A stretch of 64,000 nucleotides of DNA. Origin: the human T2T-CHM13v2.0 reference genome, Homo sapiens. A program made the position numbers and the translations under genes. Positions 1-54,562 of this stretch are shown in pieces. Numbering within the stretch: position 1 is the stretch's first letter; the number at the start of each line of letters is the position of its first letter. The notes beneath the pieces are model-generated. The model saw only the letters and a program-made list of their open reading frames with translations. It did no database searches and was not told the origin of the DNA. The stretch is from NCBI RefSeq assembly GCF_009914755.1, contig NC_060939.1; one strand, 5' to 3'.

Positions 1-490
1 TGCTGCTATAAAGACACATGCACACGTATGTTTATTGCGGCATTATTCACAATAGCAAAGACTTGGAACCAACCCAAATGTCCAACAATGATAGACTGGA
101 TTAAGAAAATGTGGCACATATACACCATGGAATACTATGCAGCCATAAAAAATGATGAGTTCATGTCCTTTGTAGGGACATGGATGAAATTGGAAATCAT
201 CATTCTCAGTAAACTATCGCAAGAACAAAAAACCAAACACCGCATATTCTCACTCATAGGTGGGAATTGAACAATGAGATCTCATGGACACAGGAAGGGG
301 AATATCACACTCTGGGGACTGTGGTGGGGTGGGGGGAGGGGGGAGGGATAGCATTGGGAGATATACCTAATGCTAGATGACGAGTTAGTGGGTGCAGCGC
401 ACCAGAATGGCACATGTATACATATGTAACTAACCTGCACAATGTGCACATGTACCCTAAAACTTAAAGTATAATAAAAAAAAAAAAAAA
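1..490 (+). mobile_element. Young LINE-1 3' end (L1PA2-like): ORF2 C-terminus, 3'UTR and poly(A); truncated by window start
   Basis: ORF 28-270 matches the L1 ORF2p C-terminus (MFIAALFTIAKTWNQPKCP...SLIGGN). G-rich 3'UTR has GATGACGAGTTAG (GAG, not the Ta ACA diagnostic). Poly(A) at ~476-490. Confidence 0.93.
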
Positions 491-872
491 GAAAATGTGG
501 CACATATAAACCATGGAATATTATGCAGCCATAAAAAAGGATGAGTTCATGTCCTTTGCAGGGACATGGATGAAGCTGGAAGCCATCATTCTCAGCAAAA
601 TATCACAAGGACAGAAAACCAAACACCACATGTTCTCACTCACAAGTGGGAGTTGAACAATGAGAACACATGGACACAGGGAGGGGAACGTCACACACCA
701 GGGTCTGTTGGAGGGTGGGATACTGGGGAAGGGATAGCATTCAGAGAAATACCTAATGTAAATGATGAGTTGATGGGTGCAGCAAACCAACATGGCACAT
801 GTATACCTATGTAACGAACCTGCATGTTGTGCACATGTACCCCAGAACTTAAAGTATAATAAAAAAATAAAC
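491..872 (+). mobile_element. Older L1PA (PA5-PA7-like) 3' end, host of the young L1
   Basis: Second diverged ORF2 C-terminus/3'UTR copy starting GAAAATGTGGCACAT and ending AACTTAAAGTATAATAAAAAAA. Confidence 0.88.
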
Positions 873-14039: not shown

Positions 14040-14510
14040 ATTTTTTTCTTATTTTATTTCTTCTTCTAAAAAAAAAAAAACAGGATACATGTTCAGAATG
14101 TGCAGGTTTGTTACATAGGTATACGTGTGCATGGTGATTTGCTTCATGTATTGACCTGTCCTCTAAGTTCCCTCCCCTCAATCCCCACCCCCAACAGGCT
14201 CTGGCGTGTGTTTTTCCCCTCTCTGTGTCCATGTGTTCTCAATGTTCAACTCCCACTTACAAGTGAGAACATGCGGTATTTGGTTTTTCTGTTCCTGTGT
14301 TACTTTGCTGAGAATGATGGCTTCCAGCTTCATTCATGTTCCTGCAAAGGACATGATCCCATTCTTTTCATGGCTGCATAGTATTCCATGGTGTATATGT
14401 ACCACATTTTCTTTATCCAATCTATCACTGATGGGCATTTTCGTTGGTTCCAAGTCTTTGCTATTGTAAATAGTGATATAATAAACAAACATGGGCATGT
14501 GTCTTTATAG
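14040..14510 (-). mobile_element. L1PA (PA10-16 class) 3' fragment
   Basis: T-tail and L1PA 3'UTR. TSD-like TGCTCTGACT / TGCTGTGACT flanks. Confidence 0.87.
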
Positions 14511-15137: not shown

Positions 15138-17099
15138 TAAAGTACTTATTGCCTGGGAAAAGCCCAGGAAGATGGACAGTGGGTGAAGGTAGTTAGGTTA
15201 ACCTACTGAAGCTCAGATCTTGTTCTTGTTTCATTTCTTAAGATAGACGGAGTTTCATGGTTTGAGGGTCCGATTGCTCATAGGTTTTGGTGGTTGGTTA
15301 TGGCCCTCCAGAAAGCACTGGCTTTCAACAGCCATGGACGGCTTATTGTACGTCTTTTTCAAAGGCCACTTTCTTCCCGGTGGATGTTTTCATCACGGGC
15401 ATCCCATTCAGGGAAGCCTCTAAAGTGTAGAGGGTGTGGACAGCCTGGGGTTTTTACAGAGACCGACCTGGGTATATTTGAGGATTTTTGTCCCAGCTTA
15501 CTCCAGTGACACATACTTTCCACACGAACTGCCCAAGAATTGGATTAAACCCTTTCTCTTAGCCCCATTCCTGATAGCATTGGTCTAGACTTCCCCTGCA
15601 ATCTCTCCACAAAATAACAAAAATATTGACAAAAATAATGGAAACGATGGCAATTAACCTGCCTCTAACCCCTCCCTGCCTTAGGTTGTCACTGCAGCAG
15701 ATAAAACCTATTTTATGGGAGACCAACCCACTGCCACAATTCCTAAAGTAAAGTTTATTTGCACAGAAAAGGAAAGGCAACTTTTTATTTGTCACCCTGC
15801 TGAGAAGAAATATGATTCCTGTCCTCTCACTTCACATTAGCTTTCCTTTTCCCCGCATGTTTTCATCCTATGGTGTCTGATCATTTTACAGAAAGGAGGA
15901 TTTCTGCTTTTGACCTTACCTCTTGCTCTTGTAACATTCCAATTTTTAGATGGTCAGTCACCATTTGCCAGTTTTTGGGGGTGGGGGTGGGAACATGTTT
16001 CGAAGCTTAAGCATACAAGGCTCTTGCCCATTTTTCAAAAAGCGTGCTGGGTAGCTGGTTTCCATGTGATAGTGGCTCCTCGGGAAAGCTATTCTTTCAT
16101 GCAGCAGCAGCGCTGGCATTGATCAGTGGGAAAGTTCAAGGCGGCAACTCATCAAGCATGCCTTCAATACCAGATTCCAGACAAGGTCTGCAATAAATAA
16201 GAGCAGTAACAAAGAATCATATTTCCTTCTTGCACAGAAAATCAGCAATGACATAGTTCTAAATTTCAGGGTTCGGGGATGGTGTCTTCTCCCTGCACTG
16301 CAAGTTGAAAGCAGAATGGCTTTTTCCTTTGAGAAGTGACATCCACGTGCATTTTAGCTGTTCTTTCCATAGAAACAGAGTCAAAATATAATTTTGAATA
16401 TGTGGGTTGACTGGGGATTTTTCAGCTTGTGTATTGATTATTGCTTGAGTTGTTCAAATAGAACCTGTATTGTTAAAAACATGTTTTGAACATATTTTCC
16501 CACATTTGTTTTAATTGACTTATCTCCCTTTCTCCTCTAATCCTTTTCCCCCAGTAATAATGTCGAGATTTTCATGTGAACATACAAAAATAACAAAATT
16601 TTGCTTTAAGTAGATAGGTGAAAATTTTTTTAAAATGGCAGTGTGATAAAAAAATATACACCCTATGAGTCCCTCACAGATTATTGCTATTGATTTCTTT
16701 CCTTGAAACGTGGAAATGTTACCAGATGGGGTGTTAGGAGTAGGTGTGTGGGTGCAAATGCAGTTTATTGCTTGTTGACTAAAAATCAGTGAAAACCTTC
16801 ACTATTTGTGTGCTTGCATTGCATGCAAAGATGAATTTTAATACCAAACCAGTCCTTATACAAAGCTTCTTGCTATGCAATGTCACATTTTTGGGTCAAA
16901 TTTATATGTGAAGGAAATAAGCTTTATGACAGACTCAAAACGCAACGATTTCAAGTGCTTGCTCTCTCTGGTTTACTGAAACACTATCGTTTTATGTTAA
17001 TGCGATCAATGAAATTTACTTATCACAATCAGATTTCTACTGTGTTTTCTCTCTTCCCCACACCCTCCCTGGGCTGCTCCTTAGAGCTTCCTCTGGTCT

Positions 17100-17790
17100 C
17101 CCTCTCAGGGCAGTGTTAATCAAATTGCTGCAGGTTTTCGGAAGCCAGGTGCCTGTGCAGCGCATGGCCACTGGGCCTGACCCCTCAGGGACGCACCCAT
17201 TAGGAAAAAAGAGGCTGACCTTCTGTCACTTTCCTTCTCCTCCCTTTTAATGATTCCTTCTCTATCCTTTTGAGAAGATCTTTCCAGCCCTTTGACCCCT
17301 GTTAGAAGAGGAAGGCTTAAACAGCTAAAACTACCCTCAATATCGAGGCTTGGCAAGGAAAGCTCCAGAGGCCTTTTAGGAAATGCCAAAAGACAGGAGC
17401 CTCAGTTTTCAGTGCATTTAGAAGGCAGATCCCAATGCAACACCATTTCCTTCCTCATTTATTTTATAGAAACAGCCAGTTTGTGTTGGCGGGGGTGGGG
17501 GGGCGGGGGGGGGGGAGCTGGGGGAGCCCCTCCTCCCACCGTCACTTGTCAGCGCCACCAGAATCCCCACGTTCCGGAGAGGCTGACTTTTAATGATAGT
17601 CCTTGGACTGTGTGAGAGCTATTGTGCTTTTTGAAAAAGAGCAAGGAGAATGTGTGTCTGGGGTGGGTCGCTAGGCTGCTGCTTTGTGAGCGCCAGACCC
17701 GGCTTTAGTTTTCATGGATAAACAACCAGCACTGGGTAGGTCGTGCCCCACCTTGAAATGGTGGGGTGCAGAGTGCTGGATCTCTGCAGG
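17100..17790. promoter_or_regulatory. Repeat-free GC/CpG-enriched block with G-quadruplex motif; candidate enhancer
   Basis: Retained CpGs, four G-runs at 17491-17524, forkhead-type ATAAACA at ~17718. Function is inferred only. Confidence 0.4.
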
Positions 17791-17849
17791 GAGGACAGTT
17801 GACAGCCTCTAGTGCCTACCTGTGCTCTCTGTATGACCTTGATTCATAA

Positions 17850-18170
17850 CAACTCAAATGACAGCTAACACTAATATAGGGTGCTCACGTGGGAGCCATT
17901 GTTCTGCATAATATGAAATGATAAGATTTGATATGTATACTCAATAATTTAACACACACTACAACTCTGAAGTAGGTACTAGGAAATTGAGGTGAAGGAA
18001 AAGAGGTGTAGTTTTACCATGATAAGAAACTTTGTATTAGAAGTTTAGCTGTGCCAGTTACTTGCTCTTTGACGTGAGTAAATTGCTTAATCTTTCTGAG
18101 CCTAAATGCTCTCATTTGTAAAAAGGGGATTGTTAATTATGCCCCAAAGGGTTTCCATGAGAATTAAATG
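17850..18170. mobile_element. MIR fragments
   Basis: GAAATTGAGG and CTTAATCTTTCTGAGCCT...CTCATTTGTAAAAAGGGGAT cores. Confidence 0.65.
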
Positions 18171-18844
18171 GGGCACTGTAGCATCCTAGGACCAAGGATC
18201 TCCACCTCCTTTCCATTCTGTCATCTCACCTCCGACCCTTCTCTGGGGACTCATCTTTCTGAGATACTGATGGGAGACAGCAAAAATGGGGTGCTTTTTA
18301 GGCACTCTGCACAGAGAAAGGGGGTAATTCTAAAAGGAGTGGCTGACATTCCTCTGTCCAGGAGAAGCTATAGATAATCTCTTATCTGTGTCACAGAACA
18401 GAATCCAAGCCTAGTTGCATCAGTCAATTATAGTTGAATTGGGAGTGGCTAAAAGGATTAGGAATTGGACTTCACATTAGAAGGTATTTGCTGCCATCTC
18501 CTCTGTAGGAAAAGGAAGAATAAAAGCAGGGTTTAAAGGTTCATGTTCTTGCTCAGATTAATCAAGTAGCCCCTTCCCCTCTTGATTTTATCTTGGAGAT
18601 GCACATACATGTGTTCACACACAGGATGTGCTCACATGTTTTCTACACTTGTGATAGATTTAGAAGTAATGGTATTTAAAGAGCTTAAAAATATTTTTCC
18701 CTGGTTACAAAAGTAATGCTTGTTTATTGTATAGACAAGTATTTGTTTGGACATATAGAAAACTATAAAGATATTAATGTCTTCACCCAGGACACAGAGA
18801 TAACCACTAAATGCATATTGGTGACTCCAAGTTTTTTCTGTATG

Positions 18845-18848
18845 CACA

Positions 18849-18899
<51 letters not shown>
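18845..18899. repeat. (CA)n microsatellite
   Basis: Directly visible, one interruption. Confidence 0.95.
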
Positions 18900-18901
<2 letters not shown>

Positions 18902-19050
18902 TAGCTTGTAGCCTACTTACAAATTTTGTTGTTTTTCTTTTAACTTTTATTTTAAGTTCAGGGATACATGTACAGGGTTGTTACATAGGTAAACTTGTGT
19001 CCTGGTGGTTTGTTGTACAGATTATTTCACCACTCAGGTATTGTCACTTT

Positions 19051-19229
19051 CCACCCCAAAACCTAATGGCATAGAACAACAGAATCATGTTTTCATTGTC
19101 TGTCATGGTTCTGGAAGTTAACTAGGCTCAGCTAAGTAGTTCTTGCTCAGAGCCTTTCATGCAGTTGCAGTCAGGTGGTAGCTTGGGCTGGTTATCTGAA
19201 GGCTGCTTACTCACAAGTCTGCCGTGTAG
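19051..19229 (+). repeat. Direct local duplication of 19568-19746
   Basis: 179 bp ungapped, 8 mismatches by eye. Confidence 0.95.
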
Positions 19230-19347
19230 ATCCCGCACTCTATACCCCACCATTTCAAGTTGGGGCACGACACACCCAGTGCTGGTTGTTTGTCCATGAA
19301 AACTAAAGGCAGGTCTGGCGCTCACAAAGCAGCAGGCTAGCGACCCA
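19228..19347 (-). repeat. Inverted local duplication of 17664-17783
   Basis: 120 bp ungapped reverse complement, 10 mismatches by eye. Confidence 0.95.
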
Positions 19348-19537
19348 TTAGTTATTTTTCCTGATCCCCTCTCTCCTCCCAACCTCCACTGTCTGACAGG
19401 CCCCAATGTCTGTTGTTCGCCTCTATGTGTTAATGTGTTCTCATTTAGCTCCCACTTATAAGTGAGAACATGCAGGATTTGGTTTTCTGTACTTTTGAAC
19501 TAGGTATTATATTCTGAGCATTTCTCTTTATCATTAA

Positions 19538-20430
19538 TGTATTGGTTACCTATTGATGCTCAATAAACCACCCCGAAACCTAATGGCATAGAACAATAGA
19601 ATCATGGTTTCATTGTCTGTCATGGTTCTGGAAGTTAACTAGGCTCAGCTAAGTAGTTCTTGCTCAGAGCCTTTCATGCAGTTGCAATCAGGTGGTAGCT
19701 TGGGCTGGTTATCTGAAGGTTGCTTACTCACAGGTCTGCTGTCTAGTCTGGAAAAGCTTAAACAGCAGAAAGTTGGAACAGCTAAGCTTTTGGACATTTC
19801 TTTCTGTGATGTGCTCTCTCCTGCATGGTGGCTTCAGGATGGCCATGTTCCTTACATGACAGCCCAGGTCCAAAAGTGCATGTCTATAAAGAAAGGCCAG
19901 GCTGATGCCAACTCACCTTTTATGTGGTGACCTAGTCTTGGAAGTCACATAGCGTTTCCTTACCACATGCTGTTCACCAAGGCAGTCTCAAAAGCCCACC
20001 CAGTTTCAAGGAGAGACATATGTCTCCCTTTGAGACATGGACCTCTCAAGTACTGTGTTAGTTTCCTATCACTGATCTAACATATTACTACAAATTTAAA
20101 GCAACAGGGATTTATTATCTTACAGTTTTGAAGGTTAGAAATCTGAAATGGGTTTTACTGGGCCAAATCAAAGTGTTGGCAGGGCTGCCTCCTCTGGAGG
20201 CTTGAGAGAGGAATCCATTTCCTTGCTTTTCCAGCTTCTAGAGGCTGCCCTCAGTTCTTGGCTTGTGGCCTCATTCTCCCATCTTTAAGGCCAGCAGCCT
20301 TGCATCTTCAAACGTCTCTCTAAATATGAGCTATTAGTTAGCCTGCTACAAATGGGAAATGGCAAGGCTTTGGAAGGGCACATGGGCCAGAAATGTTGCT
20401 GCAGTCATTTTTGCAAAGTACAGTCTGCCA
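19538..20430 (-). mobile_element. MLT1 (MaLR) LTR with a second MLT1C/D-like LTR fragment nested at ~20054-20320
   Basis: TGTATTGGTTACCTATTG and TGTGTTAGTTTCCTAT LTR termini. CCAGCTTCTAGAGGCTGCC motif. Confidence 0.7.
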
Positions 20431-20814
20431 TAATTAAATATATTCAATGATTGCATAGTATGACTGTCACCATTTGCTTAGCCTTCCTTTATTGTTAATT
20501 TTAGGTGTTTCCAATATAAATAACACTATAGGTGTTTCCATTTAGGGTGTTTCAAACATAAAGAACACTATAGTAAACAAACATTGCTATAAATAAATAT
20601 TTTTGCAAATCCCCAATTATTTCCTTAGAATAAATTAATAAGGATATTATTATATAAAAATATGAATACTTATAGATTGCTAAATCACCCTCCAGAAAGG
20701 CAACATTAGTTTTTCAGTAACATTGTATAAAAATATTTATTTTGCTATACCATCATTGATATTGAGTATAATTATTAAAAAACCTTACAGGCTGAATAGG
20801 CAGAAAACACCATC

Positions 20815-23325
20815 TTTTTTTGTAGCTTTATTGAGGTGTTAATTGATATACAAAACTGGATATATATTTAATGTATACAATTTTATGAATTTGAATATGT
20901 GCATATACCTGGGCTATCATCACCGTAATCAAGGTAGTAAACATATCTGTCATCTCCAAAAGTTACTTTGTGTCCCAATACTTTTTTGTGATATGAGCAA
21001 GAATTTAACATGAGCTCTACCTCTTAGCAAATTTTTAAGTGCACAACATTATATTGTTAACTGCAGGCACTATGTCGTACAGTAGATATCTAGAATTTAT
21101 TTATTTTGTACAACTGTAACTTTGTACCAATTGAATGACTTCCCATTTCACCTTCGCCCTATTCCCTGGAAACCATCACTCTATTTTCAGCTTCTATAAG
21201 TTTGACTATTTTAGATACCTCATATAAGTGGAATCATGCAGTATTTGTCCTTCTGTAATAGACTTATCTCACTTTGCATAATGTTTTCCAGGTCTATCCA
21301 TGTGGCTGCAAATGGTAGGACTTCCTCCCTTTTTAAGGCTGAATAATATTTCATTATATGTGTATACTACATTTTCTTTATCCATTTGTCTGTTGGTGAA
21401 CATTAGAGTTGTTTTCACACCTTGGGTATTCTGAATAATGTTGCAGTGAACATGGGATTGCAGATATCTCTTTGATATACTGATTTCATTTCGTTTGGAT
21501 ACATACACAGAAGTGGGATTGCTGGATCATACGGTAGTTCTATAGTGGTTGCACCATTTTCCATTCCCTCTGACAAAGTACAAGGATTCCAATTTTTCCA
21601 CATTCTTGCCAACACTTGTTATCTTTTGTTTTTTTGATAATAGCCATCTTAACATGTGTGCAGTGATATCTCATTGTGGTTTTGATTTCCATTTCCCTGA
21701 TAATTAATGGTGTTGACACTTTTCCATGTATCTATTGGACATTTGTATGTCTTCTTTGGAGAAATATTTATTCAAGTCAATTTCCTACTTTTTAGTTAGG
21801 TTATTATTATTATTTTGCTATTGAGTTGTAGGAGGAGTTCTTTATGTATTTTGAGAATTACCCCTTATTAGGTATATGTATTTTCTCCCATTCCATGGGT
21901 TGCCTTTTCACTTAGTTTATTTATTGATTAATTTATTTTTACTGGGAAGAAGAGTTTTAGTTTGCTGTTGTGCCCATTTGTCTGTTTTTGCTTTTGTTGT
22001 CTGTGTTTTTGGTATCATTTTCAAAAAATCATTGCCAAGACCAATTTCATGAAGCTTTTCCTGTATTTTTTCTTCTAAAAGTTTTATCGTTTCAGGTTTA
22101 CATTTAAGTCTTTAACCTATTTTGAGTTGATTGTTGTGTATAGTACAAGTTAAGGAGGGATCCAATTTCATCCTTTTGCCTCTGGGATACAGTTATTCCA
22201 TCACCATTTGTTAAAGAGTCATTTTCCTCCGTCATGTATTTTTTATTGAACATCAGTTGACAGTATATGCATGGATTTATTTCTGGACTCTCTATTCTGT
22301 TTCATTGGTCTGTATGTCTGTATTTATGCCAGTACCCTGCTGTTTGAATTACTGTAGCTTTGTAATATGTCTTTAAGTCCGGAAATATGATGCCTCCAGC
22401 TTTGATTATGTTGGTTATTCTGGGCCTTTTGTTTTTTCATATGAATTTTAGGATTTTCTTTTTCTGTTTCTGTAAGAAATGCCATTGGGATTCTCTTGGG
22501 AATATAATTGAATCTGTAGATTGCTTTGGATGTTTTTACAATATTAATTCTTCCAATCTATGAACATGAGATTTTTTTTCCATTTCTTTGTCTCTTTTTA
22601 AATTTCTTTCATCAATGTATTATAGTTTTCAGTGTACAAGTGTTTCACATCCTTGGTTAAGTTTATTTCTATGTATTTCATTCTTTTAAATGCCATTATA
22701 AATGAGACTTTTCTTAATTTTCTTTTGGGTCATTTGTTAGTATGTAAAAATGCAGTTGATTTTTTAAAATCTCAACTTTGTATCCTGCAGCATTACCGAA
22801 TTCATTTATTAGTTCTAAGAGTTTTTCTGTGGAGCCTTTAGGGTTTGCTATATATAGGATCATGTCATCTATAGACAGAGACAATTTTACATCCTTCCTT
22901 CCAATTTGGAGGCTTTTAATTTCTTTTTCTTGCCTAATTACTCTGGCTAGGACTTTTAATACTATGTTGAGCAGAAGTAAGAGATGATAGCCTGGGCTTA
23001 TTCCTGATCTTAGAGGAAAAGCTTTTAGTTTATGGGCTTTTTATATATAGCTTTTATTATAGGAGATACATTCCTTCAATACCTAGTTTGTTGAGTGTTT
23101 TTTATCATAAAAAGGTGTTGAATTTTTTCAAATGCTTTTCCTGCATTTATTCAGATGATTGTGTGATTTTTAAAAATCATTCATTATGTTAATGTTGTAT
23201 ATCACATTGATTGATTTGTGTATGCAGAGCTATCCTTGCACCCCAGGGATAAATCTCGCTTGATTATGTTGTATGATCTTTTCTGTGTGCCGTTGAATTT
23301 GGTTTGCTAGTATTTTGTTGGGGAC
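20815..23325 (-). mobile_element. L1MA (MA8/9-like) ~2.5 kb 3' portion, within older L1ME-like debris
   Basis: L1MA 3'UTR then ORF2 remnants (IELPYDPAIPLL). CCATCTT on both flanks. Confidence 0.88.
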
Positions 23326-49758: not shown

Positions 49759-50171
49759 AAGTGGATAAAGAAAATGTGGTACATATACACCATGGAATAC
49801 CATGCAGCCATGAAGAAGAATAAGTTCATGTCCTTTTCAGGGACATGGATGAAACTGGAAGCCATCATTCTCAGCCAACTAACACAGGAACAGAAAACCA
49901 AACACTTCATGTTCTCACTTATAAGTGGGAATTTAACAATGAGAACACATGGACACAGGGAGGGGAACATCATACACCGGGGCTTGTTAGGGGGTGGGGG
50001 CAAGGGGAGGGAGAGCATTAGGACAAATACCTACGCATGTGGGGCTTAAAGCCTAGATGATGGATTGATAGGTGCAGCAAACCACCACGGCACATGTATA
50101 CCTATGTAACAAACCTGCACATTCTGCACATGTATCCCAGAACTTAAAGTAAAATTAAAAAAAAAAAAAAA
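49759..50171 (+). mobile_element. L1PA (PA8-10-like) 3' fragment
   Basis: ORF2 C-terminus (WIKKMWYIYTMEY), poly(A), TSD GATTATCC (49751-49758, 50172-50179). Confidence 0.92.
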
Positions 50172-50223
50172 GATTATCCTACACCAGCTTGGAACCTATG
50201 ATATTATTGTACTAGGAGGTGCT

Positions 50224-54177: not shown

Positions 54178-54562
54178 TTATTTATTTATTTATTTTTTAA
54201 ATTTTATTATTATTATTTTACTTTAAGTTTTAGGGTACATATGCACAATGTGCAGGTTAGTTACATATGTATACATGTGCCATGCTGGTGTGCTGCACCC
54301 ATTAACTCGTCATCTAGCATTAGGTATATCTCCTAAAGCTATCCCTCCCCCCTCCCCCCACCCCACAACAGTCCCCAGAGTGTGATGTTCCCCTTCCTGT
54401 GTCCATGTGTTCTCATTGTTCAGTTCCCACCTATGAGTGAAAATATGCGGTGTTTGGTTTTTTGTTCTTGCGATAGTTTACTGAGAATGATGATTTCCGA
54501 TTTCATCCATGTCCTTACAAAGGACATGAACTCATCATTTTTTTATGGCTGCATAGTATTCC
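54178..54562 (-). mobile_element. L1PA3/4-like 3' fragment
   Basis: Young-type L1 3'UTR reverse complement with (TTTA/TTA)n tail. Confidence 0.92.

What the first reader, a model, noticed from the sequence alone, without database searches (positions are those of the whole stretch)
19043..19347. Composite templated insertion stitched from two neighbouring loci in opposite orientations
Seen: an L1 3'UTR breaks after CAGGTATT, followed by an 8 nt filler (GTCACTTT), a 179 bp direct copy of 19568-19746 (8 mismatches), a 120 bp inverted copy of 17664-17783 (10 mismatches), and then L1 again. The two copies share AG at their junction. The donor end AGCCTAGCGACCCA resembles the recalled L1 consensus AGCCTAGTACCCA, so almost no L1 is lost. 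There is no poly(A) or TSD. Known: serial microhomology-guided template switching is the signature of FoSTeS/MMBIR or polymerase-theta repair. Inference: a germline repair event; 4-8% divergence suggests it is old but later than the L1 insertion.
Basis: partly seen in the sequence, partly recalled or inferred. Interest (0 to 1): 0.8.

Follow-up and report, generated by a model that had tools for sequence, protein, structure and literature searches.

The report
Old patchwork repair insertion inside L1
A 305-base patch copied from two or three nearby stretches of the same chromosome was stitched into an old L1 fragment by a DNA copying machine that hopped between templates; it is a clean fossil of a known kind of germline mutation.

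Summary
Bases 19051-19229 are a direct copy of 19568-19746 (171 of 179). Bases 19228-19347 are an inverted copy of 17664-17783 (110 of 120). The two copies overlap by AG. In the whole 64 kb window these are the only local repeats of this quality, and they abut.

The 120-base segment has only these two copies in the genome. The L1 halves are contiguous in 28 of 29 real genomic L1 copies.

The copied end of donor 2 (AGCCTAGCGACCCA) mimics the next 13 L1 bases (AGCCTAGTACCCA, exact in 10 of 29 copies). So the return to L1 was guided by imperfect homology, and no L1 sequence was lost. Donor 1 lies inside an older dispersed repeat that runs through both copy ends, which fixes the direction of copying. 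The 8-base "filler" may be a third snippet, from 17225-17232 (p about 0.05).

Divergence is 18 of 299 between insert and donors, against 6.7-8.3% on the L1's own branch. This dates the event well after L1 integration.

Best reading: one germline, DNA-templated, microhomology-guided chain of template switches (MMBIR/FoSTeS-like, or SDSA with switches). Multi-template germline insertions of this kind are already described. It is a new member of a known kind, of modest interest.

The parts
18921..19042 (-). L1 fragment, poly(A)-proximal part. The L1 is antisense to the window, and its T-rich tail remnant is at the left end. This part ends in CAGGTATT.
   Evidence: It aligns to 28 of 29 genomic L1 copies, in 23 of them up to window 19042, and to 5 other L1 3' ends in the window.
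19043..19050 (+). 8-nt 'filler' GTCACTTT, possibly a third templated snippet.
   Evidence: The 11-mer spanning 19042-19052 recurs exactly at 17224-17234. An empirical null gives 4.6% for a match this good within 2.5 kb, so this is only suggestive.
19051..19229 (+). Direct copy of donor 1 (19568-19746).
   Evidence: 171 of 179 identical, no gaps. The next best genomic match is 78%.
19228..19347 (+). Inverted copy of donor 2 (17664-17783). It shares AG (19228-19229) with the preceding copy.
   Evidence: 110 of 120 identical, no gaps. These are the only two copies in the genome.
19334..19347 (+). Return junction. The donor-2-derived end, AGGCTAGCGACCCA, stands in for the L1 bases AGCCTAGTACCCA.
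   Evidence: Alignment with 29 L1 copies. The motif is exact in 10 of 29 copies. Only 7 sites within edit distance 2 exist in 128 kb of window sequence (both strands), and one of them is exactly the end of donor 2.
19348..19494 (-). L1 fragment, continuation towards its truncated 5' end.
   Evidence: It aligns to all 29 genomic L1 copies, from window 19334-19348 to about 19490.
19568..19746 (+). Donor 1, an internal piece of an older dispersed repeat that spans about 19538-20010.
   Evidence: Family members align across both copy ends (19538-19783 and 19930-20010). 30 genomic matches were scored; besides the insert itself and its donor, the other 28 are 71-86% identical.
17664..17783 (-). Donor 2, unique sequence copied in inverted orientation.
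   Evidence: No Rfam family matches here.
17224..17234 (+). Candidate template of the filler. It shares 1 nt (T) with the L1 end and 2 nt (CC) with the start of donor 1.

Best explanation
A single germline event, well after the L1 had integrated, interrupted DNA synthesis or broke the DNA between L1 bases 19042 and the next one. The free 3' end of the + strand was then extended on a series of nearby templates.

1. Possibly 8 nt from 17225-17232.
2. 179 nt from 19568-19746 in direct orientation, then about 220 bp downstream of the break.
3. After a switch on a 2-nt AG overlap, 120 nt from the opposite strand, 17783 down to 17664, about 1.26 kb upstream.

Synthesis on the last template produced a 3' end, AGCCTAGCGACCCA, that could pair with the L1 bases just beyond the point of departure (AGCCTAGTACCCA). 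The strand returned there and normal synthesis resumed. The net result is a 305-nt insertion with no loss of L1.

Shown here: the copies, their direction, the junction overlaps, the L1 contiguity and the relative date. Inferred: that it was one event, the left-to-right polarity, and the pathway. The pathway would be MMBIR/FoSTeS-like replication template switching, or synthesis-dependent strand annealing with several invasions. The tracts of 120-179 nt are long for polymerase theta, judged from recall of that enzyme's usual products. The insertion has no evident function.
For: - Copies and junctions.
- The two pairs are the only local repeats of this quality in 64 kb, and they abut with a 2-nt overlap. 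This argues for one event.
- Direction of pair 1: the old repeat family aligns through both ends of 19568-19746 in the donor, so the donor is native and 19051-19229 is a truncated internal copy.
- The L1 is contiguous across the insert in 28 of 29 genomic copies.
- The return junction coincides to the base with one of only 7 near-matches to the L1 13-mer in 128 kb (3.4 expected in shuffles). That is about 5e-5 per position.
- The insert keeps the donor's CG at 19341-19342 rather than the L1 base. This fits a nascent strand that carried donor sequence into the annealing step.
- Date: 18 of 299 mismatches (95% interval 3.6-9.5%) against an L1 branch of 6.7-8.3%, which predicts 40-50 mismatches (P 8e-5 to 2e-7).
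- Changes lie on both copies. The donor changed at 19607 and 19687 and the insert at 19203 (paired with donor 19720), polarised with 8 family members. So the divergence is at least partly age rather than only sloppy synthesis.
- Known class: about 100 germline templated insertions of 25 bp or more per person, 33 and 26 of them multi-template, most with microhomology or interrupted 'microhomeology' at junctions (PMC8421209, section 10 part 1).
Against: - No orthologous empty site could be examined, because no other primate genome is held. Insertion rather than some more complex history therefore rests on L1 contiguity alone.
- The direction of pair 2 has no outgroup and is inferred from pair 1 and parsimony.
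- The two segments differ in divergence (4.5% against 8.3%), although not significantly (Fisher p 0.22).
- The first junction has no more than 1-2 nt of overlap, and the filler template is only suggestive (4.6% under the empirical null).
- The 29 L1 copies were the best matches to this copy among 2065 candidates, of which 40 were scored. This biases the L1 branch downwards, which is conservative for the dating claim but makes the number rough.
- Nothing in the sequence separates a replicative mechanism from two-ended break repair.
Confidence: 0.8

Rival explanations
1. Two or more separate insertion events hit the same spot: one segment first, and the other later, exactly at its border with the L1.
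For: The divergence of the two segments differs nominally: 8 of 179 against 10 of 120.
Against: The difference is not significant (p 0.22). The second event would have to land exactly at the segment/L1 border. These are the only two such local repeats in 64 kb, so two independent events at one base are improbable.
Confidence: 0.07
2. The L1 reverse transcriptase jumped templates during the original integration. The cDNA, which is the window + strand synthesised left to right, left the L1 RNA, copied nearby chromosomal DNA or RNA, and returned to the L1 RNA by the 13-nt homeology.
For: The polarity fits: the L1 is antisense, so first-strand cDNA runs 18921 to 19494. Keeping the donor's CG needs no heteroduplex repair under this model. 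That L1 reverse transcriptase switches templates is recalled, not checked here.
Against: Under this model the insert would be as old as the L1, with 40-50 mismatches expected and 18 seen (P 8e-5 or less). From recall, known L1 chimeras join other RNAs at the 5' side and are not there-and-back internal patches.
Confidence: 0.04
3. The direction of pair 2 is reversed. The stretch 19228-19347, including 14 nt of genuine L1, is the original, and 17664-17783 is the copy.
For: The last 14 nt resemble L1. Some L1 copies align from 19334 onward: 4 of the 29 fetched copies and 6 of the 39 other L1 matches in the table, which start at 19333-19334.
Against: It leaves 19230-19333 without any source in the genome and the L1 interruption unexplained. 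It needs an extra event. It also needs the L1 to have first acquired the CG change that both copies share. Pair 1, joined to pair 2 by a 2-nt overlap, runs from donor to insert.
Confidence: 0.04
4. A double-strand break was patched with reverse-transcribed RNA, as in class 2 templated sequence insertions.
For: The region lies in an intron of the lncRNA LOC107983981 (hub annotation), so sense RNA of donor 1 may have existed. There is no target-site duplication and no poly(A), as in class 2 (PMC5110952, abstract only).
Against: Class 2 patches are described as coming from distant regions (same abstract). Here all templates lie within 1.8 kb in cis and on both strands, so an antisense transcript would also be needed. 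No known small RNA lies at the donors.
Confidence: 0.04

Closest known systems
Complex (multi-template) germline MMBIR-type templated insertions, 'MMB-TI' (Osia et al. 2021, PMC8421209)
   Same: The insert is copied from several nearby templates, in both forward and reverse directions, with short microhomology or interrupted 'microhomeology' at the junctions. It is carried in the germline without a larger rearrangement (section 10 part 1 read).
   Different: Those events were found in short reads as variants of 25 bp or more. This one is fixed in the assembly, old (6% diverged from its templates) and has long tracts (179 and 120 nt). I did not see that paper's tract lengths or template distances; its supplements were not opened.
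FoSTeS / MMBIR complex rearrangements of genomic disorders (Lee 2007; Hastings 2009; recalled, cited within PMC4937565 and PMC8421209)
   Same: Serial template switches guided by microhomology, with mixed orientations.
   Different: Those involve kilobases to megabases and copy-number change. This is a 305-nt patch whose templates all lie within 1.8 kb.
Short-range template switches in great-ape genomes (Walker et al. 2021, PMC7954356; abstract only)
   Same: A transient switch to a nearby alternative template, fixed during primate evolution.
   Different: Those are events that look like small mutation clusters (per the abstract; that they are single there-and-back switches is recalled). Here there are three or four switches and about 300 nt.
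Polymerase-theta end joining with templated inserts (recalled; discussed for meiotic breaks in PMC7615360, passages)
   Same: Templated insertion at a break with microhomology at the junctions.
   Different: From recall, theta-templated inserts are mostly tens of nt, are copied from the immediate flanks and are often accompanied by deletions. Here the tracts are 120-179 nt, the templates were 0.2-1.8 kb away and nothing was deleted.

Membership tests
MMBIR/FoSTeS-type templated insertion (complex MMB-TI) | The inserted sequence matches a template nearby in the same genome. | tested here: met
   171 of 179 and 110 of 120 identical, with templates then 0.22 kb and 1.26 kb from the break.
MMBIR/FoSTeS-type templated insertion (complex MMB-TI) | At least one template is copied in inverted orientation. 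| tested here: met
   Inverted pair 17664-17783 / 19228-19347.
MMBIR/FoSTeS-type templated insertion (complex MMB-TI) | Microhomology or interrupted microhomology at the junctions. | tested here: met
   AG at the junction of segment 1 and segment 2. At the return to L1, the donor's 14-nt end lies within two edits (one substitution, one inserted base) of the 13-nt L1 motif. There may also be T and CC around the filler.
MMBIR/FoSTeS-type templated insertion (complex MMB-TI) | Several templates are used in one event. | tested here: inconclusive
   The abutting copies with a 2-nt overlap are the only such repeats in 64 kb, and their divergences do not differ significantly. No orthologue was available to show joint presence or absence.
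MMBIR/FoSTeS-type templated insertion (complex MMB-TI) | The event arises in replication or break-induced replication. | not testable with these tools
   Sequence alone does not separate this from two-ended break repair.
L1-mediated insertion (retrocopy, class 1 TSIP) | Target-site duplication, poly(A) tail and a TTTT/A target site (PMC5110952 abstract). | tested here: not met
   No A-run in or beside the insert, and no duplication of the L1 flanks.
Class 2 TSIP (RNA-derived patch) | The template lies in a distant genomic region (PMC5110952 abstract). | tested here: not met
   All templates lie within 1.8 kb in cis.
L1 reverse-transcriptase template-switch chimera | Formed at the time of L1 integration, so as old as the L1. 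| tested here: not met
   18 mismatches seen against 40-50 expected.
Dispersed repeat or segmental duplication | Further copies of the composite or of the 120-nt segment elsewhere in the genome. | tested here: not met
   Only 2 places for the 120-nt segment and for 17500-17900. The 179-nt segment has old relatives, but at 86% or less.

The most novel reading that the evidence does not exclude
The patch is a fossil of a single chain of four switches in the primate germline. Long-tract synthesis (120-179 nt per template) ended only when the nascent end happened to mimic the 13 bases just beyond its point of departure. In other words, the return step was a homology search against the exposed original template, which explains the zero net loss. 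In addition, part of the 18 mismatches, of which 8 lie within 15 nt of a junction, would be scars of error-prone synthesis rather than age, so that such events are younger than their divergence suggests.
Probability: 0.25. Interest if true: 0.4.

Novelty: new member of a known kind. Interest (0 to 1): 0.3.

Why it matters
It is a clean, fully resolved natural example of serial template switching in the germline. The interrupted L1 supplies the sequence before the event, so every junction can be read to the base, including a long interrupted homology at the return step. Fixed fossils of this kind could be mined genome-wide to measure tract lengths, template distances and junction rules of this mutational process over evolutionary time. 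In itself it changes no current view, and there is no sign that the insertion does anything. It lies in an lncRNA intron, with no RNA family and no annotated element.

Tried and rejected
- An Rfam scan of 16500-20500 at E up to 1 gave only two sub-threshold matches, both on the CA microsatellite, and nothing at either donor. The donors are therefore not known small-RNA genes.
- Clustering of mismatches as a mark of sloppy synthesis is weak. Three close pairs in the 120-nt segment are not significant (p 0.15). Three of 8 mismatches in the last 14 nt of the 179-nt segment give p 0.02 for one end. Eight of 18 within 15 nt of any junction give p 0.02. All of these were chosen after looking.
- The filler template at 17224-17234 looked strong against shuffles (0.01 expected). 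A null drawn from the window's own sequence gives 4.6%, so I keep it only as a possibility. A 7-nt match at 17541-17547 was dismissed as chance.
- A tandem duplication of a 517-nt unit is ruled out: nothing beyond the 179 nt is shared.
- A literature search on L1 chimeras failed on a term that was too short and was not repeated. Statements on L1 reverse-transcriptase switching are therefore recalled.
- I did not name the L1 subfamily or the old repeat family, because no repeat library is on hand. From recall the repeat resembles a MaLR-type LTR, and the L1 part covers the 3' UTR plus the last bases of ORF2.

Full report
**1. What is in the sequence**

I read 17400-20100 and compared 16000-21500 with itself.
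- One direct pair was found: 19051-19229 and 19568-19746, 179 nt, 96% identical.
- One inverted pair was found: 17664-17783 and 19228-19347, 120 nt, 92% identical.
- BLAST of 19043-19347 against the whole window gave the same two matches and no others: 8 mismatches with E 3.6e-80 and 10 mismatches with E 2e-45, neither with gaps.
- Neither homology extends past the stated ends. The two copies overlap by AG at 19228-19229.
- A self-comparison of all 64 kb, with low-complexity filtering, found these two pairs as the only repeats of 50 nt or more at 88% or more that lie within 6 kb of each other.

So two rare features sit base to base. This is the main argument that one event made both.

**2. The interrupted element is one L1, contiguous across the insert**

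The flanks match other L1 3' ends in the window. The window's genome is held, so I took the 29 best genomic matches to 19325-19495. These came from 2065 candidates, of which 40 were scored and 30 returned as loci, one being the window itself.
- In 28 of 29 copies the left flank also aligns, in 23 of them up to window 19042. One copy, L030, had no left match.
- The right flank aligns from 19343 in 20 copies, from 19334 in 4, from 19345 in 3, from 19348 in 1 and from 19343 or 19359 in one locus that holds two L1s.
- In the typical copy only 9 bases separate the two alignments.
- The alignment shows the family reading ...CAGGTATT AAGCCTAGTACCCA TTAGTTATTTTTCC...
- The window reads ...CAGGTATT [305 nt] TTAGTTATTTTTCC...

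The insert has no A-run and the flanks are not duplicated. From recall of L1 structure, the break lies in the 3' UTR about 120 nt from the poly(A). The L1 is antisense to the window.

**3. The return junction**

The last 14 nt of the insert are AGGCTAGCGACCCA. The donor reads AGCCTAGCGACCCA (reverse complement of 17664-17677).
- The L1 13-mer AGCCTAGTACCCA is exact in 10 of the 29 copies.
- Within edit distance 2 of it there are 7 sites in the window's 128 kb (both strands), against 3.4 in shuffles. One of the 7 is exactly the end of donor 2.
- A coincidence to the base has a chance of about 5e-5 per position. The switch back was therefore guided by this interrupted homology.
- The insert keeps the donor's CG (19341-19342) where L1 has T. 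Donor-derived sequence therefore runs to within 5 nt of the resumption.
- This fits a + strand that grew from left to right and annealed by its new 3' end. It fits less simply a strand that invaded donor 2 with an L1 end.

**4. Which copy is the source**

- The 179-nt segment belongs to an old dispersed repeat. All 30 candidates were scored. After the insert itself and its neighbour at 96%, the other 28 are 71-86% identical.
- In the donor, the family homology runs from about 19538 to 19783 and again over 19930-20010. It therefore passes through both ends of the copied piece (8 loci examined).
- The donor is thus native, and 19051-19229 is a truncated internal copy.
- The 120-nt segment has only the two local copies. 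So does the 401-nt stretch around its donor.
- That search scores only the best candidates and skips very common words, so old, diverged relatives cannot be excluded. The segment is nevertheless not a dispersed repeat at BLAST sensitivity.
- Its direction has no outgroup. I infer it from pair 1, to which it is joined by a 2-nt overlap, and from parsimony.

**5. The filler**

The 11-mer that covers the last L1 base, the 8-nt filler and the first two bases of the copy (19042-19052) recurs exactly at 17224-17234 on the + strand.
- Shuffles predict 0.01 such matches.
- The window's own sequence is a fairer null. Of 3000 random 8-mers, 4.6% have a covering match of 11 nt or more within 2.5 kb.

A third template with 1-nt and 2-nt overlaps is possible but not established.

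**6. Date**

- Insert and donors differ at 18 of 299 sites, or 6.0% (Poisson 95% interval 3.6-9.5%).
- The two segments do not differ significantly: 8 of 179 against 10 of 120, p 0.22.
- The L1's own branch is 6.7% by a star-tree estimate from pairwise distances, and 8.3% (20 of 241) against the column majority of the 29 copies.
- The copies were chosen for likeness to this one, so these figures err low.
- If the insert dated from L1 integration, 40-50 mismatches would be expected. P of 18 or fewer is 8e-5 to 2e-7.

Polarising pair 1 with 8 family members gives mixed results.
- The donor changed at 19607 and 19687.
- The insert changed at 19203, the partner of donor position 19720.
- The other five sites are ambiguous.

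The divergence is therefore at least partly time. With recalled rates of 1-2.2e-9 per site per year, 3.0% per lineage is about 14-30 million years, with wide error.

**7. Mechanism**

The anatomy is a chain:
1. L1 up to 19042;
2. perhaps 8 nt from 17225-17232;
3. 179 nt from 19568-19746;
4. an AG overlap;
5. 120 nt from 17783 down to 17664;
6. a 13-nt homeology;
7. L1 again.

All templates lie in cis, and before the event they were 0.22, 1.26 and 1.8 kb from the break. They lie on both sides and on both strands. Nothing was lost at the target.

This is what microhomology-mediated template switching predicts, whether at a stalled fork (FoSTeS/MMBIR) or in synthesis-dependent repair of a two-ended break. 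I cannot separate these two. Tracts of 120-179 nt and distant templates are, from recall, unlike the usual polymerase-theta products.

Mismatches are somewhat enriched near junctions: 8 of 18 within 15 nt, where 21% of positions lie (p 0.02, chosen after looking). Adjacent mismatches in the 120-nt segment are not significant (p 0.15). Error-prone synthesis, as argued for germline structural variants (PMC4937565, abstract), is therefore possible but not shown.

**8. Comparison with what is known**

- Osia et al. (PMC8421209; passages, section 10 part 1) report 103 and 99 germline templated insertions of 25 bp or more in two people. Of these, 33 and 26 are 'complex' events built from several templates in both directions. 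The discussion passage says up to five templates.
- In that study, 138 of 155 and 135 of 148 resolvable junctions carry microhomology, and interrupted 'microhomeology' is also noted.
- Walker et al. (PMC7954356, abstract) show that short-range template switches are widespread in great-ape evolution.
- Hinch et al. (PMC7615360, passages) find template switching and microhomology in germline indels and structural variants at meiotic hotspots.
- Templated insertions of classes 1 and 2 (PMC5110952, abstract) differ. Class 1 needs a target-site duplication and poly(A). Class 2 draws on distant regions.

The finding is therefore an instance of a described class. I ran no literature search for this particular locus, so I make no claim about whether this event is in print.

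**9. Verdict**

Observation confirmed and interpretation supported. The event is a fixed, old, exceptionally legible templated insertion. It is a new member of a known kind. Interest 0.3.

Noticed in passing
window 18845-18899: A long (CA)n microsatellite lies just left of the L1 tail, about 145 nt from the break. It could have hindered replication, but this is speculation. It also causes two sub-threshold Rfam matches (mir-297, SCARNA7).
   Followed up: no
window 17488-17515: A G-rich tract of runs of 5, 7 and 11 G lies about 150 nt left of donor 2 and between it and the candidate filler template. It is a possible quadruplex former. No test was done.
   Followed up: no
window 20498-20573: Two 34-nt copies at 85% identity, 42 nt apart: a small local near-tandem duplication.
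   Followed up: no
window 215-510, 595-885, 14085-14300, 49880-50185, 54190-54480: Five further L1 3'-end fragments that match the flanks at only 68-84% identity. None has an insert at the corresponding site.
   Followed up: partly
window 17664-17783 with 19228-19347: The event created a 120-nt inverted repeat (92% complementary, 1444 nt apart) within an intron of the lncRNA LOC107983981. In the transcript it could pair as a long stem. No evidence that this matters.
   Followed up: no
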